64,000 nt of DNA, from positions 33,418,001 through 33,482,000 of the forward strand of contig OX597815.1 in the NCBI GenBank assembly GCA_951406725.2, given 5' to 3'. Below the pieces are notes generated by a model that made no database searches, was not told where the DNA came from, and was given only the letters and a program-made list of their open reading frames with translations. Made by a program: the position numbers and the translations under genes. This stretch comes from Octopus vulgaris (taxonomy: Eukaryota). Positions 1,641-38,475 of the stretch are shown here, in pieces (position 1 is the stretch's first letter; each line of letters opens with the position of its first letter).

Positions 1641-2160
1641 GGTCCATCTTTGTCATCACAGTGTCAGTGATGTTAACAGAGGTTGATACTGTGTTCAGGA
1701 TATTGTCATTATTTAACCCCCAGATCAGTTCTGAACCAACAGTCCTATCAAAAAGGGAGTTCTCATATTGACTATCCCAACTTTTGTTTTTAGAAATAAG
1801 GTAAATGCAATTGCAGAAGAGCCTCACGTATGTAATAAATAAAATATGCAATAAGTGGGTCAAAATCTTTGACTAACTGAGATTATTCATGCAATTAACA
1901 GACAAAAAAACTCCCTCTAAAAGTATTTAAAAATCTAAAAATATCAACTAGAGAGGCAGCTACTATACTATCAGGTGGCCTAAATATGTGAACATTTTAG
2001 CTCTTTTTTCTAGCAATATAGGTGTTTCTAATACCCTAGTCATATTTAGTGACAATTATAGTTTTCCTTTTTTGATAAAACTTTGTACAATGCTGTCTAT
2101 ATTAATTTTTTATATATGAATATATATATATAATTGACATATCGGTTCCATTCTAGCAAA

Positions 2161-2205
2161 AACTGTCCGATGAACGGCAACGGGAAACTCAGAGTAACAG
2201 GTTTT
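2161..2205 (+). ncRNA. Variant hammerhead-like motif
   Basis: CTGT-CCGATGA-A-CG GCAA CG-G-GAAA-CTCAGAG-TA-ACAG; helix I CTGT/ACAG pairs, but the core has U4C. Confidence 0.3.
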
Positions 2206-2530
2206 GTTGAATTTTCTGCTGCTTTAAATGAAGCATATTACTCTTTTTCCACCTTGTTTCACATTTATGTGTACCACTGGTATTTGAATACTCTTTTTTC
2301 CACCTTGTTTCACATTTATGTGTTTACTCTGGTATATATATATATATATATATATATACAAATTGAGATAGGGGTTGTAAATGCAACCCTCCATGGGATA
2401 ACATATATCCAATATACTGCTAGTGAAGTACCCAACAAAGTTAATACATAAATGTTAAGGATTGCAATGCAATCAATTCATTTACTGTATTATATGGGCA
2501 AAGGTAAAATGATTTACCACAAATTACTAA

Positions 2531-2979
2531 TATAAGATAAGAAAATGGAGAAATACATCTAAATTAAATATCAATTATCAGATAATACTCAATCACATAA
2601 TTTATTAAACCACCACATAAGAGACTGTAGGGTTAGACATAAAAAGGCAGAACAAATCAGTGTACACAAAGGAATGTACATAAAAAAGTGTACATAAAAG
2701 AGTAATGTTGTATAATAAGTAGAATATATATAAAAAAGAGAATATAAATATAAGTAAATATAAATATTATATTCTCTTTTTTATATATATTCTACTTATT
2801 ATACAACATTACTCTTTTATGTACACTTTTTTATGTACATTCCTTTGTGTACACTGATTTGTTCTGCTTTTTTATGTCTAACCCTACAGTCTCTTATGTG
2901 GTGGTTTAATAAAGTATGTGATTGAGTATTATATGATAATTGATATTTGATTTAGATGTAGTTCTCCATTTTCTTATCT

Positions 2980-2985
<6 letters not shown>
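2531..2985. repeat. Long fold-back palindrome (arms ~215 bp, AT-rich loop ~20-25 nt)
   Basis: AAGATAAGAAAATGGAG...AAAAAAGAGAATATAA is mirrored by TTATATTCTCTTTTTT...CTCCATTTTCTTATCTT. Confidence 0.95.
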
Positions 2986-3014
<29 letters not shown>

Positions 3015-3107
3015 AATTTTCTGCTGCTTTAAATAAAGCATATTACTCTACCACTGGTATTTGAGTACTCTTTTTTCCACCTTGTTTCACATTTATGTGT
3101 TTACTCC

Positions 3108-3148
<41 letters not shown>

Positions 3149-3149
3149 A

Positions 3150-3354
3150 GTTAATCCAAACATGAAAACACAAAGAAAAAACACAACAATGCGAGGACAT
3201 GGAACAAGCATAGTGTTTTTGGACGCTCAGGAAAGGAAAGAAAGAAGGAGGATTTAACGTTTCGAGCGGAGCTCTTCGTCAGAAACATAGGAAAAGGAAA
3301 GATCCAAGGAAGGGAAGATGGAGTGAAACAAATCACCAACAATACACATGCGGT

Positions 3355-3356
<2 letters not shown>
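3150..3356 (-). mobile_element. Short HHR-bearing element (Penelope pLTR/retrozyme-like) between (TA)n and (TG)n
   Basis: Contains the hammerhead motif at 3252-3286; a related element lies at 5523-5710. Confidence 0.6.
3252..3286 (-). ncRNA. Minimal type I hammerhead ribozyme motif
   Basis: Minus strand GTTT-CTGACGA-A-GAGC TCC GCTC-GAAA-CG-TT-AAAT: intact CUGANGA and GAAA, 4-bp helix II, palindromic ACGU helix III, helix I GUUU/AAAU. Confidence 0.75.
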
Positions 3357-3413
<57 letters not shown>

Positions 3414-3486
3414 ATGTATATACATACATACATATATATTGTTGTATTAAGGGATGGTCATTGTTTTTTTTGGCCAAATAAACACA

Positions 3487-3776
3487 TGCACTATATAGTC
3501 ATTCCTCACTCATTTATTATTGTTCTTGTTCTAACTCATGTCCGTTGTCCAGAAATCTTTCGTCACACATCTGTGACCTCTTCAGCAACACTTTCTGTCT
3601 TCATGTGTGCTCTTGTGCTACTTATTTGAGAATGAACTAAGTGGCGCAAAAGCACACACGAAGACAGAAAGTGTTGCTGAAGAGGTCACAGATGTGTGAC
3701 AAAAGATTTCTTGACAATGGACATGAGTTAGAATAAGAACAGTAACAAACAAGTGAAGAATGACTATTTAGTGCAA
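3487..3776. repeat. Fold-back palindrome (~140 bp arms) with an HHR motif in each arm
   Basis: Arms mirror around ~3630; minus-strand CTGAAGA-G-GTCACA GATG TGTGAC-GAAA at 3557-3585; plus-strand copy at 3677-3704 has GAAA changed to AAAA. Confidence 0.85.
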
Positions 3777-3971
3777 GAATATCTGTTTCAACACACAATT
3801 TCACATCAGGAATCTTGCAACACAAATACATAAATGTATATATACACAAATTCATAAACATGTGTGCGTGTGTTGAGGTGGCACTAAAATATCTAACTTT
3901 TTCTAACAGTAGTAGTATAATACCTTGTAATGCAATTCTAGACAATGTTCAGAAGGCTTAATAGAACATAA

Positions 3972-4366
3972 TCTCTATATATATAAAGCTGAAGTTGTCT
4001 GCGTATGGCAGGTTTGGTAGCCTTCAACTAACACTATCTCCTCCGAGACCCTGTGGCGCAAGTTGACCAAAATTGAGAGTTTGATAGAAGGCTTGCTCTT
4101 CCTTCCATAGAAGAAAAAATTCAAATCGGACCATGTTAACACCAAAAATTATTTACATCAAAAAGGTGCTTTTTTTTCTCTGAAAATCCCTATTTTTTTA
4201 CGATTTTTTGACTGCTGTGTCGCCATTTTTCAGTGTATTTCAACCAGAAAAATAAATGTTCGCTTAAAGAGAATAACAAGCTACAAAATGCAAAATTTTT
4301 ACTTTTCAAAAATTCCAATTCTAAAGGTTCGAAACAAATCCGAGCAATGCCGGGCGATACTGCTAG
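3972..4366 (+). mobile_element. Non-autonomous Helitron
   Basis: 5' TC after an A; 3' subterminal hairpin CCGAGCAATGCCGGG followed by CTAG then T; no TSD. Confidence 0.8.
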
Positions 4367-4918
4367 TTTATTATAAGAGGAAATGACAATAGCATTAAAT
4401 CAAGGTTTGCTTGACAGCATACATGGTATAGCATTCAGAGGTATGATATAACAGTGTTTTAATTGAACAAAAGAAAAGTTCAAGCTATTCATTATAGGGT
4501 CAAAAATCCAAAAGAATGTGTATGCAGCATAAATAACATGTAGCACTTAATGTTACAGTATATTGTGAACTGTGAACAGGATAAATGTTCAAACAGTCCA
4601 TAAATAGTTATTTAGTTCTAGAATGTTTCTTCCTTCGATATTGTCTACATGGTGGAGTTGAGTTGAGACAGAAACAGGACAATAAGTCTTTCTCACTTGG
4701 ATGCCTAGCTCGAACTCACTAAAACTTTCTTGTGACTAAGTGAAATTGTTGCATTCTTTTTATTAGGTCATATATATAGATTTTCCTACAAACACTCTTT
4801 CTCCATTGTCTATGTTGACTCTTACATGAGAACAAAGCCAAATGACACTATTGTTGTTTACAACTAGTGAACACACAAGATGAGGGGAAGTATAAACTCA
4901 CTCACACAAAAAACACAG

Positions 4919-4919
<1 letters not shown>

Positions 4920-5011
<92 letters not shown>

Positions 5012-5260
5012 TGTGTGTGTGTGCATGTGTGTGTATGTTTGTGTGTGTGTTTATGTATGTATGTATTCATGTATGTATGTATGTATGTATGTATGTATGT
5101 ATGCATGCATGCATGTATGTATGTATGTATGTATGTATGTATGTATGTATGTATGTATGTATGTATGTATGTATGTATGTATGTATGTATGCATGTATGT
5201 ATACATGTAAGTATGTATGTATGTATGTATGTATGTATGTATGCATGCATGCATGCATGT
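4920..5260. repeat. (TG)n/(TATG)n compound microsatellite
   Basis: Directly visible; source of spurious CV/MYVC ORFs. Confidence 0.95.
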
Positions 5261-5522
5261 AACATTCAGCAATGACCAACTGATAATAATGAGTTGAAAC
5301 AATTGTAGCAATGTGTAAAATAACGATTTTATGAAGTGGTTTTTTTCAAACAACAAAAAAACAGAGTACAAGACATACAGCACAAGGAATATTCCCCTTC
5401 TTCAGCTGCCCCTGCTTCGTCTACTTCATGTTTCGAAGGTAAGGGCAAGACACGACTTCGTTGAAACAGTCCTTCCCGCAAAGCAAATTAAATAAATTTT
5501 GGGATTTTATGCATATATATAT

Positions 5523-5710
5523 AGTTAAAATTTAGAGAATAACAAAAGTGAAGATAGGTGTATAAACAACAAGCAGGTGTATTAGTTTAATGCTTGGGAA
5601 GGTGAGAAAGTCTTTTACATTTCGAGCCTACATTCTTCAACAGAAAGGAACATGAGGAAATAAACAGAGGGAGAATATAAAAAAAACTGTGGATTTAGTG
5701 GTCAATTTAC
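5523..5710 (-). mobile_element. Short element with a decayed HHR, flanked by (TA)n
   Basis: Minus strand CTTT-CTGTTGA-AGAAT GTAG GCTC-GAAA-TG-TA-AAAG at ~5612-5647; helix I CTTT/AAAG is retained, core and helix II are mutated. Confidence 0.5.
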
Positions 5711-5810
5711 ATATATATATTTTATTTATTACATTATTGTATGACTGAGCACCCTCGCGTCGATTCAATTCGATTCGTTTTGTTTCGTTTCGTTTCTTCT
5801 TCTCCCAGTA

Positions 5811-5883
<73 letters not shown>

Positions 5884-6877
5884 TGTATGTATATGTGTGT
5901 GTATGTATGTATGTACACATGCACAAGATGCCATATAGTGAAACTAAATCCACTGTATGGCACCTTCAAACTTCATAATAACACAATATTTAGTTTTATG
6001 CTTCCCCAGCCTCAGTTTAAATCCCACTGGATCAAGAAAATCAGTACCAGCTATATATTGATTCTATCAGTTAACTAATCCTCTTTCCTATCACTTGTTG
6101 CTTTCTGCTAATTTATGATAACACTATTTACTCAAAACTGTATCAGTAACATTTCCAGTCATGTAACTAAATGTAATTTACAATGTAACCTACTTAAAAA
6201 CTTTGATTCTGTCAGCAGTGCTAAAGTACAGAAGCTAAATGGCTGGCTTCCCATCTTTTCCACAGCATTATACTCCATAACAAAGCATTGAGCCATTAGT
6301 TGAAAGACTTCAATGTGTTATCCAGTGATCTGCATTTATGATGCTTGCTTATTGTTTCAACATACGATATACTGGATCAATAAGCCAGCTACCAACAAGG
6401 AGACTATTGCTAGCATATGCATACAACAATTTTTTTCCCCTGATGTAGTTTTCACAAGTACCACGGGATCATTACTTTTTTTTATTGATATCTATCATAT
6501 ACAACCAGTAGCCATAAATGCATAAATGGATCCATGATAATACCAGAAGATAACTTTGTGGAATACATTCAAGGTTATGTTAATTCTTTGAGAAATTCAT
6601 ACTACATGTTCAGAGTAATATAGAATTGATAAGAATAAATCTAAATTGTAATTAGGTGTTGGTCATTTCCAGTGGCTAGAAAGAGTGTAATGATAAGATC
6701 TATATTCTGTCAATATTGAGGTTGGTGAAGATAGCCAAGACAGTAATACACCAGACAAAAACGTTTTACTGTCTCCAGTTGACTAATACATACATATGCA
6801 CACGAAATAAAACTGAATAATGACATACATATATATAAAAGTACATACATATATTGTGTGTGCAAGTCCATTGTTGC

Positions 6878-6911
<34 letters not shown>

Positions 6912-6924
6912 TCTTTTATTCTTT

Positions 6925-7290
6925 TTCTTTTACTTGTTTCAGTCATTTGACTGCAGCCATGCTGGAGCACTGCCTTTAGTCAAAGAAATCAACCACAAGA
7001 CTTATTCTATCAGTTGCTTTGCCAAGCTGCTAAGTTACAGGGGACGTAAACACACCAACATCAGTTGTCATGCGATGGTTGGGGGACAAACACAGACGCA
7101 CATATATATACATATATTTATCTTATATATATGACGAGCTTCTTTCAGTTTCTGTCTACCAAATCTACTCATAAGGCTTTGGTTGGCCTGAAGTTGTAGT
7201 AGAAGATGCTTGCCCAAGGTGCCATGCAATGGGACTGAACCTAGAACTATGTGGTTGGGAAGCAAGCTTTTTACCACACAGCCACACCTG
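6925..7290 (-). mobile_element. SINE family A
   Basis: Reverse complement of the 6-422 element. Confidence 0.85.
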
Positions 7291-7755
7291 TACCTCCACA
7301 CAGCCACAAATGTGCTTCCACACAGCCACATTTGCACCTCTCTACAACCATGTGTATGTGTGTGTATCTATATATACATATGTATGTTTGTGTATGTATA
7401 TATGTATATGTATCTATAAATATATGTATATGCATACACACACACACACACATGTGTGTATGTATGTATGTATGTATGTGTGTATGTATGTATGTATGTA
7501 TGTATGTATGTATGTATGTATGCATGTACGTATGCATGCATGCATTCATGCATACTGCATGTATATATATATGTATACACATATGTCATAATCTAAAAGT
7601 TAGAAAATATATGAAAAACATTTCAATCTAATGCACAATATTGAACAGCCACACCTGGGGTGAAACTAAGAGAGTTCAGTCAACTTTTGATATAATAGAT
7701 ATGTGTATGTGTCTGTGTCTGTTTGTTTTGTGTGTAGGTGGGTCAGTGAACGAGT

Positions 7756-7802
7756 GTTTATTACATCAGTTTCACCAGCTGAGCTGTTCATGAGTACTAA
7801 AC
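7756..7802 (-). ncRNA. Degenerate hammerhead motif
   Basis: Minus strand CTCATGA-ACAGC TCA GCTGGT-GAAAC-TGAT-GTA-ATAAAC; G5 is mutated. Confidence 0.4.
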
Positions 7803-7944
7803 TTTTGATGAAACTCAGGGTACACTGTCGACATTTTATATAATTAATATATCTATCTATTGTACCCATCATATTGAGTTCTATATCAAATAATGTTAGT
7901 ATTGTGTAAAATATATTTGAATATACTTAACAACTCTGAAGTTC

Positions 7945-8310
7945 ACTTCTTAACCACATGACTCTGGGTTCAGCCCCACACAGTGTGACACCTTGGACCA
8001 AAGTCTTCTACAATAACCCTTGGCTGATTAAAGCCCTGTGAATGGATTTAGTAGATGGAAACTGAAAGAAACCTATCATAATAGTGTGAGCATATATATG
8101 TATTTAATTATGAGTGAACATGTGTCTCATTGTGTTTGGTTTGCCAATACTCCTGCATGACAACCACTGTGAGTTTGTTTATGTCCCTGTAACTTAGTGA
8201 CTCAGCAATAAAGATCGATAGAATAAATACTGGGGTTGATTTGTTCAACCAAACCCTTCAACCCTGCATCCCAGCATGGCCACAGTCCATTGACAGAAAC
8301 AAGCAATGGG
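7945..8310 (+). mobile_element. SINE family A, diverged
   Basis: Matches both halves of family A. Confidence 0.75.
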
Positions 8311-8351
8311 TAAAAGATGATATATCAGTGACTTCATAACATACTGCCAAT

Positions 8352-8655
8352 CAGGTACATGGCTCCCAGTCATGAGGTAGTCAGTTTGATTCCTGTGTTG
8401 TGTTCTTGAACAAGACACTTTATTTCACATTGTTCCAGTTCACTCAGTTGCAGAAATGAGTTGCGATGTCACTGGTGCCAAGTTTGGCTTTCCCTTGGAT
8501 AACATCAGTGGAGTGGAGAGAGGAGGCTGGTATGCATGGGTGACTGCTGGTCTTCCATAAACAAATTTACCCAAACTTGTGCCTCGGAGGCTAACTTTCT
8601 AGGTGGAATCCCATGGTCATTCATTATTGAAGGGAGTCTTTACCTCACTTTACTT
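8352..8655 (+). mobile_element. tRNA-SINE family D with GTGTTGTGTTCTTGAACAAGACACTT core and TTTACC-type tail
   Basis: Similar head/core at ~39066-39150 and ~55160-55220. Confidence 0.6.
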
Positions 8656-8662
8656 TATTTTA

Positions 8663-9265
8663 TATATACAAACTTGTTGTCAGTTCAAATATGCTTCAAG
8701 CATATTTGAACTCATAAGAAAACCATTCACTGTATTTTGTTATGGAGAAAATTTCTCGCTGTAGACAAATCAGTGTAAATACACTAAACCAGCTTACAGC
8801 ACTCCATAACCTGAATGTTGGATGCACGTATTTCGGAGTGGTTATCTCCTCTTCAACCACAAAGACCAGAAAAGTAGATGCTGTGAACTGACACAAGAGA
8901 CAGGTCCTTCTTATGATATACCCATCATCATTCAATGACTTCTTGTGCTATGCAGCAGCTCACCATAAACAAAATACGGGATGACAGAGCTAAGCAATGA
9001 GGTGTATAAATACAAGCTTGTTACCAGTTCAATATGCTTGTGGCATATTAGAATCCATAAAAAATCCATTCACTGTATTTTATCATGGAGAAAATTTCTC
9101 ACTGTTGACAAATAGGTGTAAATACATCAAGTCAGCTTGCAGCATTCCCTAACCAGACTGCAGGATGCATGCATTTTGGAATGGTTATCTCCTCTTCTGT
9201 CACAGAAACAGGAAAGGCAGACTTAACAAACTGACATGAGAGACAGATCCTTCTAATGATATCCT
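8663..9265. repeat. Diverged tandem duplication (period ~340 bp)
   Basis: 8663-8925 aligns with 9005-9265 (shared CCATTCACTGTATTTT...ATGGAGAAAATTTCTC...GTGTAAATACA). Confidence 0.85.
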
Positions 9266-9279
9266 CAATATATGGCAGT

Positions 9280-9575
9280 AATCACGTGATCACGTAACCG
9301 ACTAGGCTATCAGATGTTAATACACATCGCTGGTTACAATGCGCTTCGCATTGTTTTAGCCTTCAAATGACGCCATCCCGCAGGCCAACAGAAGAAAGAG
9401 TGAGAGAAAGTTGTGGCGAAAGAGTACAGCAGGGATTGCCACTACCCCCTGCCGGAGCCTCGTGGAGCTTTAGGTGTTTTCGCTCAATAAACATTCACAA
9501 CGCCCAGTCTGGGAATCGAAACTGCGATCCTAAGACCACGTATCCACTGCCCAAACCACTGGGCCATTGTGCCTG
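9280..9575 (-). mobile_element. tRNA-SINE
   Basis: Minus-strand head GGCACAATGGCCCAGTGGTT...GTTTCGATTCCC; tail shared with 55280-55385 (+). Confidence 0.65.
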
Positions 9576-10169
9576 TACTATATAATGGAGTTAAACTAAG
9601 TAGGGATCTTGTACCATGCATGTTTCTTAGCATAACATGACATATGTATATATAAGTGTCTTTTACTATTGCATTGGGCTGACCAAAGCCTTGTGAGTGA
9701 ATTTGGTAAACAGAAACTGAAAGAAGTCTCATCATCATCATCATCATCTTTGTTTATTGTCCACCTTCCATGCTGGCATGGGTTGGACGATTTGACAAGA
9801 GCAAGTCAAGTAGAAGATTACACCAGGCTTCTGTGTTGATTTTGGCATGGTTTTTATGGTTGGTTGCCCTTCCTAACACCAACCATCCTACTCGTGTGTG
9901 TGCGTGTGTGTGAGTGTGTGTCTGTGTGTGTATGTGTGCGTGCATGTGTGCATGCGTGCATGTATGTGTGTGTCTTTGTGTCTGTGTTTATAACCTCTTA
10001 ACAACTGGTGCTGATGTGTTTATGTCCCCATAACTAAGCAGTTTGGTAAAAGAGGTAGAACAAACACCAGACATGACAACAAATAAGTTCCAGGGTTGAT
10101 TCATTCAACTAAAAATTCTTCAAAGCAATGTTCCAGCATGGCCATGGTCTAATGATTGAAACAAGTAAA

Positions 10170-10348
10170 TCATCATCATCATCATCATCATCATCGTTTA
10201 ACATCCGCTTTCCATGCTAGCATGTGTTGGACGATTTTGACTGAGGGCTGGTGAACCAGATGGCTGCACCAGGCTCCAATCTTGATCTGGCAGAGTTTCT
10301 ACAGCTGGATGTCCTTCCTAACGCCAACCACTCCGAGAGTGTAGTGGG
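10170..10348 (-). mobile_element. SINE/LINE 3'-end family C with (GAT)n tail
   Basis: (CAT)n-CGTTTAAC(G/A)TCCG(C/T)TTTCCATGCTAGCATG; related copies at ~9730, 12668, 22700(+), 34790, 43920, 44515, 48635, 53720(+), 55780. Confidence 0.75.
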
Positions 10349-11199
10349 TAAAAGAAAAGATTTATTGTCCAAACCTTGCTGCCATGGGATACAAAAGTTA
10401 ACTGATGATGATGATGATGATGGTGGTGGTGATGATGATGATGATTGTGGTTACAGGCAACTATGCTGTCCCCTTATATGAAACATCTTGTATTACATAA
10501 CCTTTGAAATATAAAATAACACATTCAGCCTTCAAACTCGTTAAGTACTTTTTTATGATTTGTAAACATTTTATATATATAGCAGACCAAATAGCTACCC
10601 ACACATGTACCCAAAGCCTAATATTTTATCTATTTAGCCATTTAGCCATTTAGCCCTCTAACCTTTTATTTTCCTATAAATATAAATTATTTGCTAAATT
10701 AATCCTTGCTGTACAGGCTTTGGGTGGAAGTTTCTCAATCGTGAAAACCCCGTTTAATACCTGTAACCACCATTTCCTCTTGGAATAATTGTAGTTTTAT
10801 ATATCTATCACTGAAAAGTAAGTGACATTTGCATGAACTGTAATATTAGAAGGAAAAAAATTAAATCTCTCTCTTTCTCTTTCTCTCTCTCTCTTTCTCT
10901 TTCCTCTCTCTCTCTCTCTCCCCCTCATCTTTTCTTTTTGTTTTTTTATGTGATTTATCTGGGATGGGGTGGCTGACTGAAGCTAGCATCAAAAATTGAA
11001 AGAATAAGATAAAAGAACGATGATAAGAGGAATTAAGAAGAGGAGGAGGAGGAGGATCATCATCATCATGACTTTAAGTGGGAGTATACTAAAGTGTAGG
11101 CAGTTGGTGACAATGACAATGAGGAGAGGGAGGAGGAGGAAGAGGCAAAGATCATTGTCATCATCATCATCATCATCATTGTTGTTAATGCCACTGGGA

Positions 11200-11900
11200 T
11201 TACCATCACCACCACCACCACCACCACCACCGCCGCCGCCAACACCATCACCTCTACTACCAACACCATCATCATTCATCATCATGCAACTACCATTATC
11301 ATCATCAGCAACATCAGTAGCTGCAGCAGCACCACCACCATCACTGCCACCACCATCACCTCCACTACCAACACCATCATCATTCATCATCATGCAACTA
11401 CCATTATCATCATCAGCAACATCAGTAGCTGCAGCAGCACCACCACCACCACCACTGCCACCACCATCACCTCCACTACCAACACCACCATCATCATCAT
11501 CATGCAACCACCATTATCATCATCAGCAACATCAGTAGCTGCAACAGCACCACCACCACCACTGCCACCACCATCACCTCCACTACCAACACCATCATCA
11601 TCATCATGCAACTACCATTATCATCATCAGCAACATCAGTAGCTGCAGCAGCACCACTACCACCACTGCCGCCAACACCATCACCTCCACTACCAACACC
11701 ATCATCATCATCATCATGCAACTACCATTATCATCATCAGCAACATCAGTAGCTGCAGCAGCACCACTACCACCACTGCCGCCAACACCATCACCTCCAC
11801 TACCAACACCATCATCATCATCATCATGCCACCACCATTATCATCATCAGCAACATCAGTAGCTGCAGTAGCATGAGCAGCACCGCACCACCACCACCAT
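11200..11900. repeat. Minisatellite, ~6 copies of a ~105-112 bp unit built from CAT/CAC triplets
   Basis: CATCATGCAACTACCATTATCATCATCAGCAACATCAGTAGCTGCAGCAGCACCACC... at ~11280, 11388, 11499, 11603, 11712, 11822. Confidence 0.9.
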
Positions 11901-12387
11901 AGCTATCTCAAACGATATTGAGCTACACTGCAGAACTAGTTCTAGTTCTATTCTGATATCTTTTGTTCTTACAGTTGTCATTCTTGCTGTTACTTGCCAT
12001 TACACTTTCTCTACATTTCATTTCTTGTTTCTTTCTTTTTTCTATTTTTAAGGGTGAGGGGTACATTATTTTCTGTGATTTTCTTTCTTTTTTTTCCTTT
12101 TTTGGTGGGGTAGGGGCACTCTATTATTTTTGAACAAGATTTTCAGTCAAAATTTAGTGGATGTCTGCTATCAAGTCATATAATAATAAATTCAATTGTT
12201 CCTGTGACATATATACTGTCAGTTAATTGGAAAATTGACATTTCTACAAAAACAGCTTTCGAAAATAATTTGCTCTGTATCTATTTTAGTTGAAATCAAC
12301 TTGAAACTGGCTGTACGAATCCAGACATTCAGATACAACTGGAGAAAATATATAATATAGATAAAATTTAACAGAATTCCATACATT

Positions 12388-12480
<93 letters not shown>

Positions 12481-12634
12481 ATATATATATATATATAATA
12501 AATAAAGATTTTTTCCTGTATCATACTGACTCAAAGGACCAGTTTCCCATTTTCTGTGGTGCATATATCCCACCTTGGAAGGACGCCAGTCCATAAGCAG
12601 GATTACTCATTTTTGTCAGATGGGTGGACAGGAG

Positions 12635-12670
<36 letters not shown>

Positions 12671-12801
12671 TCATCATCATCATCATCATCGTTTAACGTC
12701 CGTTTTCCATGCTAGCATGGGTTGGACGGTTCGACCGGGGTCTGGGAAGCCAGGAGGCTGCACCAGGCTCCAGTCTGATGCAGCCTCCTGGCTTCAGACT
12801 G

Positions 12802-12883
<82 letters not shown>

Positions 12884-12991
12884 TGTTGTGTCTGGGGAGA
12901 GTCATTTTCTTGTGCCTTATAATGTAGCACACTCACCTGTAAAATTTCCACTTATCCCTTATTTTTATTTTCCTAAAATTTCCGTTGCATC

Positions 12992-13040
12992 TTGCAACCT
13001 TTTCAATAGTCTTGAGTCAAGACTACTGAAAAGGTTGCAA
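12992..13040. repeat. Near-perfect 49-bp palindrome adjoining a decayed HHR-like motif
   Basis: TTGCAACCTTTTCAATAGTCTTGA-G-TCAAGACTACTGAAAAGGTTGCAA. Confidence 0.85.
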
Positions 13041-13719
13041 TGTGGTTGTTGAGTGGTACCTGTACAAGCAGAAGAGACCACTCCAAAGACCTCCAATCTG
13101 GTGGGAAGATGATTTAAGGAAAATGTTTGAAGCAATGTGGAGGAGAGTGGCAAGAGCAGAGGGGAATGGAACAAATGTTGTAGCCAGTGGCGCTGACTTG
13201 GCACCAGATAGTCTGGCTGATCCATGTGACATATATATATCTCAATTGAAGTGTACAGTATTACATATCTATTACAGCCGATCTGTAACAGATATATAAT
13301 ACTGTATATAAAATACTGTACACTTCTGTTACACAGGTGACCAATGCAATGAATAGAGCAGGTGAGTGATAAGTGAGAGATTAATCAAGAGAGAAGGCAG
13401 TTGATGGTGGCATAACAGAAATAATGCAATTGGTTTGAAAGACTTAAATATAATTATACTTTACATTCTAGTATCTCCAAACTATTAATATTTTAACATT
13501 CATTTTCCACCAGTTTGCCTGATTAGGCACTGAACAACTTAAGTAAAACAATGCCTTTTCTATGTTTGGAATTTCTTCTCTAAATCTACAGATTCACCAA
13601 AAAGAAATAAATCATCAGCATATAGGAGTTCCCATTGACAACAGCCTTAAATTTTTCATCTATAGTCCAGGGGACAATAATAAATAAGTGGTAATTGAAA
13701 ACTCAGCAATGATGAACTC

Positions 13720-13946
13720 ATGGCAAGCTGGCATACACGTTAGCGTGCCGGGTGAAATGTTTAGCGGTATTTCATCTGTTGTTACGTTCTGAGTTCAAAT
13801 TCTGCCGAGGTCGACTTTGCCTTTCATCCTTTCGGGGTCGATAAATAAAGTACCAGTTTTGCAGGAGTCGATGTAATTGACTTAATCCCTTTGTCTGTCC
13901 TTGTTTGTCCCACCTATGTTTAGCCCCTTGTGGGCAATAAAGAAAT
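13720..13946 (+). mobile_element. tRNA-SINE family B
   Basis: GGCAAGCTGGCA...GTTAGC...GAGTTCAAATTCTGCCGAGGTCGACTTTGCCTTTCATCC; copies at 14174, 19988, 23590(-), 24230(-), 27342, 43603, 53440(-). Confidence 0.85.
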
Positions 13947-14094
13947 ATACATATTATATTAATTGTTAACTCTCACTTTGTTGACTTCACCTCTGTACAT
14001 GGCTTGCATGACACCCATGCTATTCATCTCTTCCTGGTTTCTTTGGAGACCACCAGATTACAGATCTTGGAAACCCATTAAAGACTTTCAAATG

Positions 14095-14680
14095 CTACGT
14101 ATAGGAGTATGTTCCTAAGTACTTCTCCTGAAGTTGTCTCACAAAGATGGTGTCAATACTACTTCTGGAGCAAGGTGGCAAGCTAGCAGAAGAGTTAGTA
14201 CCCTGGGCAAAATACCTAGTTGCATTTTGCCCATTTTTACATTCTGAGTGCAAGTTCCGCTGCAGTTGACTTTGTCTTTCATCCTTTCAGGGTCGATAAA
14301 ATAAGTACCAGTTGAGCACTGGAGTTCATGTAATTGACTAAACTCCGATCCTGAAACTGCTGGCCTTGTGTAAAAATTTGAAACCAATATTACTTCTGGA
14401 ACAAAACCAAACTGAATCTTGTCTATGCTGATTATGTACTCATTCAATTATGCTATAACTCTTTCTGCAACTGTTAAAACCTGGTTCATCAATTTGATGC
14501 CTCTAATGTTGCCTCTCTCTAATGCAGCTCCTTTACTCCCGTAGCAGCTGACAATGGTACTACTACTCCAGTCACTGAGTATCACACCTTTCTATAACAT
14601 GAGATGAACTATGTGAGTGACTAGCATGTGCCTTATCTCATTGAATATTTTGGGTATCCTGAGCTGTTTTCTCTGCCTTC
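14095..14680 (-). mobile_element. RTE LINE reverse-transcriptase fragment split by a SINE B (14174-14385)
   Basis: Translates to ...RGIKLMNQVL...IDKIQFGFVP|...IFVRQLQEKYLG; duplicated AATA(C/T)TACTTCTGGA flanks the SINE as a TSD. Confidence 0.7.
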
Positions 14681-14799
14681 ATATTCTTAATTGTGTCTAT
14701 GCCTACTACGTATTTCTTCTTTCTTTCATTTGTGTTTTGTTTCTGCATCTAGTTTGTAAGTATGTTATCTAATTTTTTAGTTCCATGATTCAATTAGTT

Positions 14800-15095
14800 T
14801 TTTCTCTTCATTGTGGCTTCAGGGCTTTCTTTTCTAAATTGAAATTTATGCTGATAATCCAATTGAACCAGTGCCCCATATATAACAGGATATCCAGTTG
14901 TTTGTTATCTGAAGCATAATACTTGAGGTCATCTATATACAGGATATGCTTGATTATCACCCCACAGAACATCTATCTACATCCAATCTGGTTAATCATG
15001 TTGATTAAACAGGTCAGTGCCACAGATAAAAAAAAAACGATGAAGAGAAATAGTTCTTTTGGAATATTCCATTTTTATTAGGTAGCATTTCCATT
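14800..15095 (-). mobile_element. Decayed non-LTR RT fragment (R4/Dong-like)
   Basis: Translates to IKNGIFQ...KHILYIDDLKYYAS with a frameshift and a stop. Confidence 0.6.
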
Positions 15096-18000
15096 TCTAT
15101 TAATTTCTTCTTTTGTTTTGGATTTGCACAACTGTCTTCTTTTTATTAATGGAATGTTTGATGTTACTTCACTCATGAATAATGTTTCTTTAGCCCATTC
15201 ATAACTCTATCCCTGATGAAACTCAAATTGTTTGAATTTCTATCAATTTTGAAAATAATCAAGAATCCAGAGGATTGAGACAACTATTTTTTTTTCCATT
15301 ATTAAACTTAATATTTCAAATATAACTTAATGAAAGGATCTTAAAGAATATATGATGGAAAGTTTTGCTTTGAAGTTCATGTCAACATTTGAAAATTGGC
15401 AGTTTTGTATCACAAAACCAGAAACAGCCTCAGATATCATAAAGAATTATAGGATGTATTATGATATCCTTCTATAATAACATTGTTTTATGCTTCAACC
15501 CTTCTGTCTCCTAAAATCTTCAGTTATGGTTTTGTTGATCAATAACAGATCCCTACATCTGGATGAGCTTTTGCAGTATACTTTCTATACATCTCAAAAT
15601 GTGTTGGGATTTTTCAGCTGAGTACTTATTTTTATGTAAACATGTTGCATTCATACAAACATATGAACACAAACCACATGTCAAAAAGACCTGGTGACTT
15701 CTAAACTCATGTCAATTTATTATTAGTCACCAGTGTTTATTCTGCTTCAAAGAGAAGACTCAGACGAAGTTTAATGAGCACATACACACACACACATTAA
15801 GGTAAGGAGAAAAAGTCAATATATGTAGCAGATTTATATTTAGTTGTTCAAAGGTGATGATTCATTGTGTCACTACTCAGGATTTCTCACAGTGTGCAAT
15901 CCTTCAGACAGTAAAAATGGCCAAATGTGACTAGAAACTCTGTCGTAACAGAGTGAATCATGAGCTTTGAATGAAGAATGAATAAAGTATGTGTGTGTGT
16001 GTGCACGTGCGCATGTGCACGCAGATGTGAGATCATCATCATTGTCCACTTTTCCATGTTTACATTGTCAAATGAAAAACACATGTATTTAGTTTTTCCC
16101 CTCTTTTTATTTCAATTAACCTTTCTAAACTATAATGTGTTAGTTAACTCATCCATGAACATTCTGATACCAAATTCCCAAGAACAGCAAAAACAGTTTA
16201 TTTCTAAGGTATTACAATTCTTATCCTGATACTTAGATACTACTTTAATATATTTTGCATTTGGGACAACAGACAAGCAATCTCCAGTGTCAAATGTTAG
16301 TTAATATAGGATTGTATACCTGAATTTTTCTTTTCCTATTTTGACTCAAATTCATATTTAATTTATCAGCTCTTAACAGATAAGAAACTGAAAGTCAACT
16401 AAGAACTCTAAAATTGACAATTAAAACTGATTTGTAACATTTAAACTGAGAAACACAAAATCTTGTGGTATGTTATATTATCATCAATGTTATTTTCAAT
16501 CCTAGTTTTTATTAGATAGATATTCAGTATCATGTGTTCCAATGCATCTCACTCTGAGTTATTGCACCTTTGAGATGCAGATGTTTTAGGCTTGATTAGC
16601 AACTATTTCTTTTTTATAAGTCTATGTAACCTACTGCACCAAAGGAGTCTTCCATCCATGTCACTTTTCATCTACCTTATAACATCCGTTCACATCACAA
16701 GTCCATAACTCCTACATAAGTATAACTCCTACATAAGCATCAACCAATACCTTTAATATCAAATTATTGCTAACACTACATAGTCATACTTAACGCATTC
16801 ATTTTTAATTCCAAACAAATTCTGTAATTGTTGGGTGGTACTGTCTTCATGTATAGACAAACTTTAATACAGAGAGAGTTGGGAGAATCCTTTAGCACTT
16901 ACACATAAATACTACCTATCATTTTATTACAATCTCCACCTCCATCACTAGCTTGCAGCACTTATCTGTTATTTCAGAGAACATTCTAAACAACCGTCAT
17001 TTGAATACGATGGCTATTCCTGCTGTTTGTTATGCCAATGCATTTACTTAAAATAATTCTTGCTTTTCTGTCATTTTGATGGATATTCTACAGCAACTTT
17101 GTGTATCTGTTGTTTATTGGCTACAGAATTCATAGCTTCTGTCTACTTCTACCAATTCCTTCCAAGCCTACTGCATAAGTTACTTTTCTGATGATTTTTT
17201 TTTTAAGTGTGCTCATAATTAATACCTTTGTTTTGGTCTTGTTTCCCATTAAACCTTTCAATATAAGCTTACAGATCCAAGTCTGAAACTTTAGAAATTT
17301 TCCTACAGTTTCTCCATTGAAAATCAGATTGTTGGAATATGTAGGTTCTCAATAGCCTCTATTCTGGGTAGATGCCATTTTAATATTTAAACAAAATCCA
17401 ATAATTATCACCCAAACACAATATAGAGAAAACATGCTTAAATATTCTGTTAACAGTTAAAGTAAATTAAATTTTGAAGCCTTCTAATGGGAATCAGCAT
17501 ATTAATATTGATATATCAATTCAAAAAGTTTCACATACATAATGTTGAACAAAAGGTCAAATGGCATTAGAGACATTATTGCAATCAAGGACCTAAAAGA
17601 TTTAATATTATAATCCACAGTGAATACAGAAATCCTATTTGATATATGAGAAAATAAAACTAAAATGCAATACACTATTAAATACCCATATTTTATTATA
17701 ATTGTGTTAAAAAAAAGAGTGACATTGATCATGACATATTGTGACCTTTCAGTTGAAATTAAGATCAGGGGTACATTTATTATGAAAATTATAAATACAG
17801 GACTTGAGATGTTGGAGGTTAATGGTTGCGAAATAAGAACAGCTGCAGATGCTTACCTGTGGCAGCTAGAAAAGGATGAATCAAACAAGATATATCAGGT
17901 ATTTGATAGGAAGTTGAGAGACTTAATATAAATGAACATATAACATCTTGGCGCATGAGAAACAGTAACTGAACTGTTTGCACTTGTATGTATGCTGGTG

Positions 18001-18292
18001 ATTGATGACGGGATCTTGGTGAAGATATGCATCTGTGATAATGATGATAAATGATGGCTGAGCTATTTATATCAGATCTTGGAAAGAAACGTGTTATTGT
18101 TGATTCACTTAGTGATATAAATCCTTCAGTATCAGTGTATTACAACATCATAATTGTAGGCAAGCTAGTGTTAACATATTTAATGCATGGAGAATTAAAC
18201 AGCTTACTAGAAATAAATGTATAGTGAGGCAAAAACAGTATTAGTCAATGACTAATATTGCTTCCATTTTAGTGGGCAAGTATGGCAGACAA

Positions 18293-18334
18293 CTCCAGAC
18301 ATGTTTCTATTTTATTATGGCTTCATCAGTGAAG
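18293..18334 (-). ncRNA. Minimal hammerhead motif with decayed helix II
   Basis: Minus strand CTTCA-CTGATGA-AGCCATAATAAAATA-GAAA-CATG-TC-TGGAG: helix I CUUCA/UGGAG, palindromic ACAUGU, GUC triplet. Confidence 0.6.
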
Positions 18335-19409
18335 CATACTCAAGTACTGATGAAAGAATCACAAAGTAAATCAATGTAAAAGATTGTATGGTTATTGAAG
18401 TAGGAAATTAGAATTGCTTAGAAATTAATACATAGATGTCAACTGCATGAAAATCAGTACATTAGGGTTAACATATAATATGCAGAGAACATTCTTTTTT
18501 GTCACACTAAAATTAATTCTGGTTAGCTTTTTAACCTTACATGCATTAAATACATAAATATTAACTTACCTATAGTTGTACTGTTGCAACCAATTAATAA
18601 AACAAAACAAATATCTAATCATTCAAATTAAGTTTGAAATATCAATAATAGAGAGTTGTAAGTTTGAAAAGTCTAATTGGTAATCATCACTAATAATTAA
18701 ACTTTTGAAATACGAAGCAAAAAAAATGTGAGCAGCACCCATCCAGTGTTACAGGCCTTTCATCCTGTTACATATGCTTACATTCTTTGTTGACATTATG
18801 AGCAGTTGTTCAGTACTTTTACAGGCTTATAAAATGAAAAAGATCTTTTACTTGAAAAACATGTAATGGTTAGCAACAAGAAAAGCAACCAGCCATAAAA
18901 TTCTGCCTCAGATAAGTCCTTAACCATCCCATGATAGCATGAAAATATGGATGTTTGCATGAACAAAAAGACATTACTTTCTTTGATTACTTATTTATCA
19001 TATTAAGTAAGTTAGTAAATCTCTTGCTGGTGACCAGAGTAGGAAGCTGTCCTCTCGACCAATATGCTGATGTGGGTGCCACTGGATGATAGATTCTGGT
19101 GATGATGTTATTTCATGCTTATAGCACTGACCTTGGCATGCTGGAGGTCAAAGCGCTGTAACTTCAGGTTTTCCTCAATTTGTTTCATCCATGTTTTCTT
19201 TGATATGCTACATTGGATACTCCATATTTAAAGCACAGTAACTTAGGTCAGAACCTTGATTTATTTTATTTATTTTCTTTTTATTTATATTCATCCAACA
19301 CTTCTTGGATAGAAGAGAATAAAAGAAGTGGGTGTATAAATTACATCGTTAATTTACGAAACATTAGTTCGACCATAATCCACAAATTTCTCAAACCTTT
19401 TCCACAGAT

Positions 19410-21797: not shown

Positions 21798-23804
21798 AGA
21801 AAAACAATTCATTGTGGGTGCAAAACCAAAAGGAGTTTTGTTAACTGTCAGAAGCAAAGGGTTGATTCCAGTTTTTATTACAAAAATGGTAGCAAAAATT
21901 TCTTGAAGGAGAAATTTAAAAGAAGTTTAAAAGAAGGCTCAGAGATAGGTTATTTACAATCTAAAATGTTTCGATGGATAGGATTCAGCCACATTCTGAT
22001 AGTATAAAACTAATTGCATTTTTATTGAATAATTTTGTACTTACTGACTGTGGCAATTAAAAATCTGTTGACCTTATCATTTCTGCAACTCTAGAAATTC
22101 CACTCCTGCCTCTTTGTAACAAGACAAGTGACTGCTGTCTTGAAATAAGTTTTTCCACTTGTTAGTTGTTAGCAATATTTGTACATGCAAAGTGTATGAG
22201 GAGATGAACAGATATGGAAATCAGATTGGCAGCTTATGAGTAATGAGTTCAAATCTGCTACAGTTGCGTCAATGTTTCTAAGAAAATTATCTTATTTTAC
22301 TTCATTTTTGTATCTGGCTTGCAAGATTCTTTATGTGAATTCATGTGTTGAAACAAATTTTGTAGTATCTGGGGAGAGTCATACTGCCTTATTATCTAAC
22401 ACACCCACTGGTTCAATTTCCACTCATTTATCATTCTTTTTTGTGTTAGATACCTTATTTTACTTTCCCCAGTATATCTAGTAATGAAGAATAGACACCT
22501 GATACTTCTTGGACAGTTACCAACAATAGATCACCACCCTATATAGAAACAAATCAATTTTACATTTATTCTATTCTATAGAAACAAGAGTCAAGCCTAA
22601 GTGCTAGGATTTTTGTGATTTCTAAATAGTTTTACAGGTATATTGATTTCTAATATAGATAGTGATCAGAATGGTCATCCATACATACAGGCTTGTCCTT
22701 TACAGGTAAATGCACCCATGCCAGTGGCATGTAAAAAGCATGCAGCACACTGTGTGGAATGATTGGTGTTGAGAAGGGCATCCAGCAATAGAAACCATGT
22801 CACAACAGACAATTGGAGTCCAGATAGCTCCCTAGCTGGCCAGCTCCTGTCAAACCATCCAACCCATGCTGGTATGGAAAATAGATGTTAAAAAATGATG
22901 ATGATGATGATGATGATGATGATCAGAAGTACATCTCCTAGTGAAACAATGTAAGTATAAATGGGTATATTGACAAAAGAAGGGTTGTTGTTGTTAAACA
23001 ACAAGACGGGTAAGGGTGATTAGGTGATGGTCTAGGACTTGGGGGCGGGAGATCCCAGACCTTGGAAAAAAAAAAACTTTGGTCATCTTGTTGTAGTTGA
23101 GGGCTCTTTGTTGATGCCCGACACCACTGGGAGGTGGCTATCGAAGTTGCTGGAAAAGGAGATCTCCAGGTCCAAATTCTTGAACGGCTGCTGCTGCTAC
23201 TGTTGTTGTTGCTGCAGCAGGTGTTCTTTAACTCCAGGTCAGCCCCAATCAAGCAGGGTTATGACAAAGGTTTTGCAGCCATGACCTTACTAAATTTTAT
23301 TCAGATATGCGTTTTGTATTACATTATGCAATGTGTCTCTCTCATTTAAGATAATAACGTGTAATGCAGGGAAATTTGGTTGGTTTTAAAGATCACATAC
23401 AAGTTTTAACTGTTTGAGATGGTAATGTTTTTTTCCAGAATGGTACTGCAATTTTTTTTGATTTCTCAAATAGAATTTCTTTTGACTAAAGTAACCAATA
23501 CCTTTGGTTTTGCTAGTCTTAAAGGTTTTGTGAAGACAATGAACACAGCTTCTTCATCCTGACCAGACCAATAATATTAATAATAATAATTCTTTCACCT
23601 AAAGGCACAAGGCCTGAAATTCGGGGGAGGGGGTAAGTCAATTACATCGACCCCAGTGCTCCACAGGTACATATTTCATTGAACCCCAAAAGGATGAAAA
23701 GCAAAGTCGACCTCAGCAGAATTTGAACTCAGAATATAAGGACAGACCAAATGCTGCTAAGCATTTTGCCTGGCATGCTAACAATTCTGCCAGCTTGCAG
23801 CCTA

Positions 23805-24940: not shown

Positions 24941-27362
<2,422 letters not shown>

Positions 27363-27432
27363 AGCACAAATGCTAAGTGGCGTTTTAAAGTTTGCAAATT
27401 TATCATGTTTTTAGTATATATTATAACAATAT

Positions 27433-27593
27433 GACAAAATTTATTATTTTTACTCTCAACCGAAGTAAGGCCCTATATCTTCACTAACTCCTCCTGGTCC
27501 AATAGAAAAAAAAATTGACCTTATTGGACCAGGAGGAGGTAGTGAGGTTATAGGGCCTTACTTCGGTTGAGAGTAAAAATGATAAATTTTGTC
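27433..27593. repeat. Hairpin/MITE-like fold-back (72-bp arms, 17-nt loop) inside a SINE B
   Basis: GACAAAATTTATTATTTTTACTCTCAACCGAAGTAAGGCCCTATA...CCAATA / TATTGG...TATAGGGCCTTACTTCGGTTGAGAGTAAAAATGATAAATTTTGTC. Confidence 0.9.
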
Positions 27594-28180
27594 CTAAGTC
27601 TGTCTTTACATTCTGAGTTCAAACTCTGCCAAAGCCGACTTTGCCTTTCATCCTTCCAAGGTTGATGAAATAAGTACCAGCTAAGCACTAAGGTTGAGGC
27701 AATCAACTTATTCTCTACTCTGAAAAAATTGGCCTTCTGCCCAAATTTGAAACCAATATTAACCCTGAATAGTAATAACTTCACATTAATTTTTTTTTTT
27801 TTTCTGTGATTGTAGTTATAAGACTTCTTATGACCATAGGTATCTAACCTTAAGCCTAACTCTAACCTTAACCCTAAAACAGATTGAAATGCAATAGATT
27901 AATACTAGGGTCATAATTATGGGTGACAATTTCATATGACACCGCTAGAAAAAACTGCCGTTCAAACCGAAAAGATCCATGATGGCTGGAAGAGGGTTCC
28001 AAAGGTGTGCATTTTGAGGATAGTTGTTCAGAATTGAGGCATAAGTAAGATGACAAGAAGAGACATGAGTTTATTAAAATGGATTTCAGTAATTAAATAT
28101 GGAATTAACAAGAAAATAAGACTATTGCAAATAGCAGTGACAGAAACAGGAAGCCTACTGAGTTCAATCTAAACTCAATG

Positions 28181-37745: not shown

Positions 37746-38475
37746 TATACATATATACATATATATAGATAGATAGATATAGATATATGTATCTGTTTGT
37801 GTATGTATGTGTGTGTATGTGCATGTATGTGTATCAATGAATATATGTATATGTAAATGTGTGTGTGCATGTGTGTGTGTGTGTATGTATCACATTTACA
37901 CAGACACACACATAGATGCATATACACAGACACACACACACACACACATACAAACATGTACATGCACATATATACAATTAGTTAAAATCTATACAATTTT
38001 TTAATTATCATTTTTATCATTTAAGCAGAATTTTGATCACATTATTCATATTTATATTAAAATTTATGTATATAGGTTTCTTAATATTTTGTTTTGTAGA
38101 TTAATATGGATTAGAATATAAAACTTAGAGAATGTTTAATTCTATGATCATAATAGTAACAGTGCACCTGCTGCAATTTTTGATTATAAGAAGAAATAAT
38201 AGCCTCCAAAATAATGTTTTCCTTTAAGTACTACCATAATTTGGAAATTTTGCAAGAATTTTGATTTGATGCTTTGGGTGTTGAGACCAAATGTTGTTAT
38301 ATTTTGGAAAAGACACCCTATTAAAGCCTATATGTACAATCACTTGTTGCTGTTCTTCTCTATTGCTTTCTTTTTACATAAATAGTTGTTCATATATATT
38401 TTCCCCAAAACTATTTTCACCATGCTAAACCTGTGGCCTTGTCAATGGGAATATATTTTTAAATGCTTTAGTTTT

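What the first reader, a model, noticed from the sequence alone, without database searches (positions are those of the whole stretch)
2161..18360. Cluster of several distinct HHR-like families with a recurring palindrome-upstream architecture
Seen: HHR-like motifs at 2161, 3252, 3557/3677, 5612, 7756, ~12972 and 18293, with mostly different helix II sequences; most are on the minus strand. At ~3630, ~13016 and ~18338 an inverted copy of the core sits just upstream. Inference: a diverse, largely ORF-less ribozyme retroelement system with a shared fold-back integration step and a preference for (TA)n. This is the best candidate for an undescribed system here, although PLE-HHRs are known in general.
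Basis: partly seen in the sequence, partly recalled or inferred. Interest (0 to 1): 0.75.

Follow-up and report, generated by a model that had tools for sequence, protein, structure and literature searches.

The report
Penelope retrotransposon ends carrying hammerheads
Six of the seven motifs are real hammerhead-ribozyme-shaped sequences sitting in the short leftover ends of several known kinds of jumping gene (Penelope-like elements) in what is likely an octopus genome, so this is an ordinary system, with one unusual detail: a whole lineage keeps a changed letter in the ribozyme's core that would be expected to cripple cutting.

Summary
Six of seven motifs (2161, 3252, 3557/3677, 5612, 12972, 18293) are type-I minimal hammerheads of multi-copy families; 7756 has no family and breaks helix I. 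Five of the six families are linked, in longer copies elsewhere in the genome, to reverse-transcriptase and/or GIY-YIG coding sequence on the same strand (Hydra-, Neptune- and Nematis-like Penelope elements); one link rests on one locus. The window copies are 5'-truncated pseudo-LTR ends in (TA)n. The palindromes at 3630 and 13016 are the published inverted 5' copy: centres vary between copies and the optional tail sits on one arm only. The 'inverted core' at 18338 is ordinary collinear sequence. Only the old 312-nt family at 18293 remains ORF-less (retrozyme-like). Such insertions occur about 0.7 per 10 kb genome-wide; the window total is normal, though bunched. Residual interest: core changes fixed in whole subfamilies (U4C, A13G, and A6U across a Neptune-like clade whose motif is otherwise conserved). 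This scan reported the same general picture on other DNA of this genome (e1-8669779).

The parts
2132..2332 (+). Family A: 5'-truncated pseudo-LTR end of a Hydra-clade Penelope-like element, with tail, between TA runs; 28-nt internal duplication
   Evidence: 98% to family majority
2163..2200 (+). Type-I hammerhead of family A; core CCGAUGA (U4C, shared by the subfamily), 2-bp helix II with GCAA loop, 3-bp helix III
   Evidence: sequence; 30 of 30 top hits have C4; young sister subfamily has U4
3012..3109 (+). 3' fragment of family A without the ribozyme, tail-to-tail with family C across one TA tract (3110-3147)
3150..3357 (-). Family C: truncated pseudo-LTR end of a Neptune-like element
3252..3286 (-). 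Minimal hammerhead of family C; canonical core, bulged A, palindromic ACGU helix III
   Evidence: strict descriptor
3437..3627 (-). Family B left arm (no tail); hammerhead 3588-3549 with canonical core
3635..3835 (+). Family B right arm with tail (3781-3835); hammerhead core from 3677 with G12 lost; Nematis-like element
5524..5706 (-). Family D: truncated pseudo-LTR end of a Neptune-like element
5612..5647 (-). Minimal hammerhead of family D; core CUGUUGA (A6U, shared by the whole clade)
   Evidence: U6 in 53 of 56 D-like copies
7756..7800 (-).
12883..13015 (-). Family E: truncated pseudo-LTR end; hammerhead 13009-12973 with U3-A8 core and A13G
13016..13039 (+). 24-nt inverted arm of the family E insertion
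18163..18456 (-). Family F: about one 312-nt unit of an old ORF-less family; hammerhead 18334-18293 with ACAUGU palindromic helix III
   Evidence: 85% to family majority
18488..18589 (+). Inverted partial arm of family F (3' part only, no ribozyme), head-to-head with the main unit

Best explanation
The region holds six separate insertions of hammerhead-bearing pseudo-LTR ends, five of them from protein-coding Penelope-like retrotransposon families, each likely written into a TA run by the element's own endonuclease and reverse transcriptase and cut short at its 5' side. Shown: family membership, links to RT/EN coding sequence, TA at the 3' ends, inverted 5' arms with variable centres, a tail on one arm only, different ages. 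Inferred from published work on PLEs: the GIY-YIG nuclease nicks AT-rich DNA; reverse transcription starts inside the RNA at one of two sites a short way downstream of the ribozyme (the stretch between them is the tail); most products stop after 100-300 nt, so nearly every copy retains the ribozyme and nothing else; a second priming event, on the other strand or by self-priming, gives the head-to-head arm. The ribozyme is thus a passenger of the region copied first, not the cause of the palindrome. The bunching likely reflects insertion into microsatellites made or used by earlier insertions.
For: A: RT plus CxCX5C endonuclease upstream on the same strand with an inverted 5' pLTR; sister subfamily gives pLTR-727 aa-pLTR, 13 of 30 RT loci have the hammerhead upstream in sense; RWK, DKT and CxCX5C motifs that define Hydra (PMC8557442 section 11) are in the ORF. 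B: 20 of 24 loci picked by the endonuclease end have the B hammerhead downstream on the same strand, with RT and short CxxC linker upstream. D: RT and long-linker endonuclease contiguous with the pLTR in L323, part of it in L326. C: 16 of 30 pattern-picked copies share a long upstream region, reaching endonuclease-end-like sequence in L395 and L369 (read by eye). E: GIY-YIG fragment (PF01541, E 1.4e-4, 22.5 bits against cut-off 22.6) upstream in L128 with the inverted E tail at its 5' junction. Tail on exactly one arm: 13 of 14 B, 10 of 11 A, 10 of 13 E (3 neither). Fold-back centres from -200 to +34 relative to C3. TA 36 of 47. Window copies 85-98% to their family majorities.
Against: Family F has no coding link in 25 loci and 3 of 25 are partial tandems. 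E rests on 1 of 25 loci. C's endonuclease remnant has no Pfam or BLAST support; the younger C subfamily showed no long upstream extension in 9 pattern-picked copies, so it may move as a short non-autonomous unit. Pfam did not recognise the A ORF or the B and D pieces; clade names for B, C, D are by motif comparison. The six insertions are more bunched than uniform. No PLE coding sequence lies near the motifs in the window. My first apparent ORF link for B (L222) proved false.
Confidence: 0.88

Rival explanations
1. Some of the families (F, and the younger C subfamily) are non-autonomous retrozyme- or SINE-like units that borrow PLE proteins and move as short RNAs, possibly circles.
For: F: 312-nt unit, partial tandems in 3 of 25 loci, no ORF seen. 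C: most copies stop near one AT-rich point about 90 nt upstream of the core; only 1 of 24 has a fold-back; 16 copies in 840 kb. Non-LTR retrozymes as PLE derivatives are published (bioRxiv 10.64898/2026.07.22.740005; PMC7229834, listing only). True tandem arrays of other families occur in my sample (L230, L256).
Against: Older C copies run on for more than 1 kb upstream, and L380 of the younger type also extends past the point, so it is a truncation hotspot rather than a hard end. F is old, and coding partners may have decayed.
Confidence: 0.35
2. One reading: one undescribed ORF-less ribozyme system in which the hammerhead directs a shared fold-back integration step.
For: Copies in the window are ORF-less; inverted arms often begin within 60 nt upstream of the core; TA preference is real.
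Against: Five families have coding links from three PLE clades; centres vary by more than 200 nt; C, D and F rarely fold back; hits were picked for carrying the ribozyme, which itself selects short arms; same architecture is published for PLEs, including Naiads that lack canonical hammerheads (PMC8557442).
Confidence: 0.04
3. The motifs are chance matches in AT-rich repeat DNA.
For: Relaxed descriptor not above shuffles; no Rfam hammerhead among the 150 of 235 matches shown; folding z-scores flat. True for 7756 as far as tested.
Against: Strict descriptor 8 vs 0 and 2 vs 0; unrelated families keep the same core, bulge, palindromic helix III and paired helix I, as in the consensus of PMC4209133.
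Confidence: 0.02

Closest known systems
Minimal type-I hammerheads of metazoan PLEs (Cervera and de la Pena 2014, PMC4209133; read parts 1-2 of 4 and passages of one of two supplements)
   Same: Core CUGANGA, one unpaired base before helix II, short helix I, palindromic helix III, many families per genome, mostly single motifs from truncated PLEs, pairs on opposite strands 100-700 bp apart, U3-A8 variant
   Different: Octopus not among the species found in the supplement searched; cores with U4C, A6U or A13G fixed in subfamilies were not seen in the parts read
Hydra clade PLEs (Craig et al. 2021, PMC8557442; section 11, passages, supplement rows)
   Same: Family A ORF has RWK, DKT, CxCX5C; hammerhead in pLTR; (TA)n target; tandem and inverted structures
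   Different: About 3.5 kb with a roughly 1-kb 3' UTR against 'generally <3 kb'; very young and numerous here
Neptune and Nematis clade PLEs (same paper, linker rows of Fig. S2 as text)
   Same: D has the long CxxC linker like Neptune; B has the short linker like Nematis; C is a sequence relative of D and E shares B's tail
   Different: Assignment by motif comparison, no tree built; all coding copies seen for B-E are broken
Penelope structure in Adineta vaga (Arkhipova et al. 2013, PMC3846280; passages) and Poseidon_Ac mechanism (Frangieh et al. 2024, PMC11167929; parts 1-2 of 4)
   Same: Inverted shorter 5' pLTR, junction palindromes, optional tail on one arm, solo pLTRs; tail equals the stretch between two RT start sites; hammerhead cleavage not needed for insertion in vitro
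   Different: Tails here about 55-67 nt against 30-40 nt
Animal non-LTR retrozymes (bioRxiv 10.64898/2026.07.22.740005; part 1 of 5 and passages)
   Same: Family F: short non-coding unit with type-I hammerhead, as monomers and short tandems
   Different: F is old and mostly monomeric; no circular RNA shown; A-E have coding parents

Membership tests
Penelope-like element, EN+ | RT plus C-terminal GIY-YIG endonuclease in one ORF linked to the repeat | tested here: met
   A; B; D. Weaker for C and E
Penelope-like element, EN+ | Same feature for family F | tested here: inconclusive
   no coding link in 25 loci with 1.5-kb flanks
Penelope-like element, EN+ | Pseudo-LTRs flanking the ORF with a hammerhead in each | tested here: met
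   L224, sister subfamily of A; not seen for B-E, where only 3' ends were held
Penelope-like element, EN+ | Inverted 5'-truncated copy and optional one-sided tail | tested here: met
   for A, B, E; rare in C, D
Penelope-like element, EN+ | (TA)n target preference | tested here: met
   36 of 47 vs 9.5%
Hydra clade | RWK, DKT and CxCX5C motifs | tested here: met
   727-aa ORF; definition
Neptune / Nematis clades | Placement in the RT tree | not tested
   linker motifs compared by eye
Minimal type-I hammerhead | Core, bulge, helices I-III, NUH | tested here: met
   strictly for 3252 and 3557; with one or more core or helix changes for the others
Minimal type-I hammerhead | Same, motif at 7756 | tested here: not met
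   G5 lost, helix I unpaired, no family
Minimal type-I hammerhead | Self-cleavage | not testable with these tools
   needs a cleavage assay
Non-LTR retrozyme | Tandem non-coding units each with a hammerhead | tested here: inconclusive
   F: 3 of 25 loci partial tandems; not met for A-E
Non-LTR retrozyme | Circular RNA | tested here: inconclusive
   only contigs of runs not on record as RNA were available

The most novel reading that the evidence does not exclude
A large Neptune-like clade (family D, 5612) carries a natural hammerhead core with U in place of the invariant A6, kept under purifying selection: 53 of 56 copies have U6, position 7 and the cleavage-site base vary between subfamilies as in working hammerheads, and the rest of the motif is far more conserved than its flanks. 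Together with U4C fixed twice (A and C subfamilies) and A13G (E subfamily), this would mean PLE hammerheads are kept as a fold for the RT, or that the PLE protein rescues cores that are dead on their own.
Probability: 0.3. Interest if true: 0.55.

Novelty: new member of a known kind. Interest (0 to 1): 0.27.

Why it matters
As a system it adds nothing new: it is a sample of the roughly 200,000 (extrapolated from 60 in 840 kb) hammerhead-bearing PLE ends of this genome. It is useful in two ways. The one-arm tail counts in three clades support, from genomes alone, the two-start-site model shown in vitro for one lizard element. And the subfamily-fixed core variants, above all A6U, plus a very young Hydra family with intact ORFs, give ready material for the open question of what the PLE hammerhead is for.

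Tried and rejected
Rfam scan: no hammerhead among the 150 of 235 matches shown. First descriptor without the bulge missed all true motifs. ORF link for B through L222: false, that RT belongs to another Hydra-like family with its own hammerhead; 0 of 19 such loci had B downstream. A fixed 5' end for C: looked sharp in 41 copies but longer copies exist. Alternative register for the D core (shifted by two) breaks helices I and II (by inspection). First automated fold-back count was faulty and was replaced; B rows printed were not oriented. Pfam and PDB sequence searches gave nothing for the A ORF; its homologues carry PF26215, PF28514, PF01541. RNA: no RNA holder listed; contigs of four guessed-RNA runs laid on the C copy showed no joints, and on the young A element only strand-change and skip joints plus a few go-back joints of low depth; contigs cannot show ends or circles, so this says nothing either way. 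Luense et al. 2017 on PLE hammerhead variants is not held and may list A6 or U4 variants. Search for hammerhead + A6U + catalytic core: 0 papers; one of two supplements of PMC4209133 could not be searched; bioRxiv supplements were not seen. Longer flanks for six C loci could not all be had, so a C-linked RT core is left open. Other cephalopod genomes were not searchable.
Full report
Setting. The window lies in a 2.8-Gb genome. The closest named relative of one linked protein is labelled Octopus vulgaris, and I take the organism to be an octopus. No Penelope-type coding sequence lies near the motifs; the only hit in the window is a weak one at 39561-39674.

The motifs. With the unpaired base before helix II allowed, the window gives two strict hammerheads (3282 and 3585, minus) against none in 50 shuffles; 720 kb of evenly spaced stretches give 8 against none in 10 shuffles. 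A relaxed descriptor is not above chance, so the worn motifs were judged by family. Genome searches return hundreds to thousands of first-look candidates for six of them; only the best 40 were scored and 25-30 fetched per family, so these sets lean towards the window's own subfamily. The families (A 2161, C 3252, B 3557/3677, D 5612, E 12972, F 18293) match the published consensus for minimal PLE hammerheads (PMC4209133). The motif at 7756 has no family and lacks G5 and helix I.

Coding parents. A: two of 30 loci hold RT within 1.5 kb; the extended locus shows RT, a CxCX5C endonuclease, a same-strand pLTR downstream and an inverted pLTR at the 5' side. A protein search finds a very young sister subfamily with many open 727-codon frames, arranged pLTR-ORF-pLTR or as head-to-head pairs over 99% identical, with the RWK, DKT and CxCX5C motifs of the Hydra clade. 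B: a first link was false; a search with an endonuclease end found upstream of one B copy gave 24 other loci, 20 with the B hammerhead downstream on the same strand and RT plus a short CxxC linker upstream in several. D: L323 has a broken RT and long-linker endonuclease running into the pLTR, L326 a part. C: most copies stop near one point, but 16 of 30 copies picked by a pattern demanding non-TA upstream sequence share a long upstream region, and two reach what reads as an endonuclease C-terminus; this last step is by eye. E: one of 25 loci has a GIY-YIG fragment upstream whose 5' junction carries the inverted E tail. F: no coding link; 312-nt unit; 3 of 25 loci are partial tandems.

The palindromes. 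The 3630 palindrome recurs as a type, not as a fixed unit: in 14 palindromic loci the centre sequence differs each time and the tail is on exactly one arm in 13. Searches with one arm give fold-backs in 13 of 30 A, 9 of 25 B, 17 of 25 E, 1 of 24 C, 2 of 25 D and 0 of 10 F copies whose core could be located (5 B, 1 C and 15 F rows dropped for lack of a located core), with centres from -200 to +34 relative to C3 (centre estimates are rough for arms with deletions). One-sided tails also hold in 10 of 11 A and 10 of 13 E copies. This is the published inverted 5' pLTR with optional tail (PMC3846280; PMC8557442), and the tail has been tied to two internal RT start sites (PMC11167929). The match at 18338 is collinear family sequence next to a deletion; a true inverted arm lies at 18488-18589.

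Target and density. 36 of 47 copies in 840 kb end at (TA)3+, against 9.5% for random places. With 20 families (6 from the window, 13 seeded from the sample and one) there are 60 insertions in 840 kb, about 200,000 genome-wide; the window's six are as expected for 64 kb (P=0.31) but are bunched in a quarter of it. The copies differ in clade and in age (85-98% to family majority), and A/C and C/B share microsatellite tracts, so I read them as separate events; the bunching is not fully explained, as the region is not richer in TA tracts than the sample.

Mechanism. Shown: structure, links, target, asymmetry. Inferred from the cited work: nicking of AT-rich DNA, internal priming just downstream of the ribozyme, early termination, and a second priming that makes the inverted arm. 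Because copying starts 60-170 nt downstream of the hammerhead, even the shortest products keep it, which explains many families of lone hammerheads without a special ORF-less system.

What is left that is unusual. U4C is in 30 of 30 top A hits while the young sister subfamily has U4, and in 13 of 44 C copies as a subfamily trait; U4C is known from a viroid and lowers activity (PMC3088659). A13G is in 16 of 25 E copies (read). A6U is in 53 of 56 D-like copies; position 7 takes all four bases and follows subfamily. Between four subfamily majorities, 1 of 18 motif positions not used to anchor the search varies against 58 of 88 flank columns; caveats: flanks are low-complexity and gapped, one subfamily has 4 copies, 15 copies fell in no subfamily, and the profile included the core. 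A6C is reported as weakly active; my search for A6U found no paper, but a key paper was not held. In vitro, hammerhead mutants did not block insertion of a lizard PLE, so tolerance of such cores fits present knowledge.

Earlier notes of this scan reached the same general reading on other DNA of this genome; I had formed it before looking. Look-ups by the D sequence, by A6U and by place found nothing.

Verdict. Real, mostly correctly seen, and ordinary: new family members of a known kind. Interest 0.27.

Noticed in passing
L202, L224-L227 (G000, many places): Very young Hydra-clade PLE with many open 727-codon frames, copies over 99% identical, in tandem and head-to-head pairs; likely still active and a good substrate for in vitro work.
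   Followed up: partly
window 2530-2984: Palindrome with 218-nt arms, 97% identical, next to a TA run; its outer 94-126 nt match other loci. Probably another fold-back insertion; no hammerhead found in it.
   Followed up: partly
window 38408-38451 (-): Single hammerhead-like match with U3-A8 core and 6-bp helix I; no relative in the loci held; not searched genome-wide.
   Followed up: partly
window 22361-22438 (-): Worn 3' fragment of family E without the ribozyme.
   Followed up: no
window 27430-27596 and 25506-25757: Hairpins with 75-nt (93%) and 88-nt (95%) arms; the second looks like an inverted pair of a common SINE-like repeat.
   Followed up: no
L230:2307-4513, L256:8667-9406: Two-armed tandem arrays of roughly 355-360-nt hammerhead units (retrozyme-like), in an unbiased sample.
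   Followed up: no
L303-L321: A second, older Hydra-like family with its own hammerhead (long helix II, 3-bp helix III like family A).
   Followed up: partly
L118 (family E): Arms within one locus differ at position 13 (GAAA versus GGAA), which could mean two templates or later mutation.
   Followed up: no
window 11200-11870: Tandem repeat of about 105-110 nt built of CAT/CAC/CAG triplets.
   Followed up: no
window 39266-39500 (+), 18990-19200 (-), 15880-15960 (-): Stretches that look like exons of a host gene; not identified.
   Followed up: no
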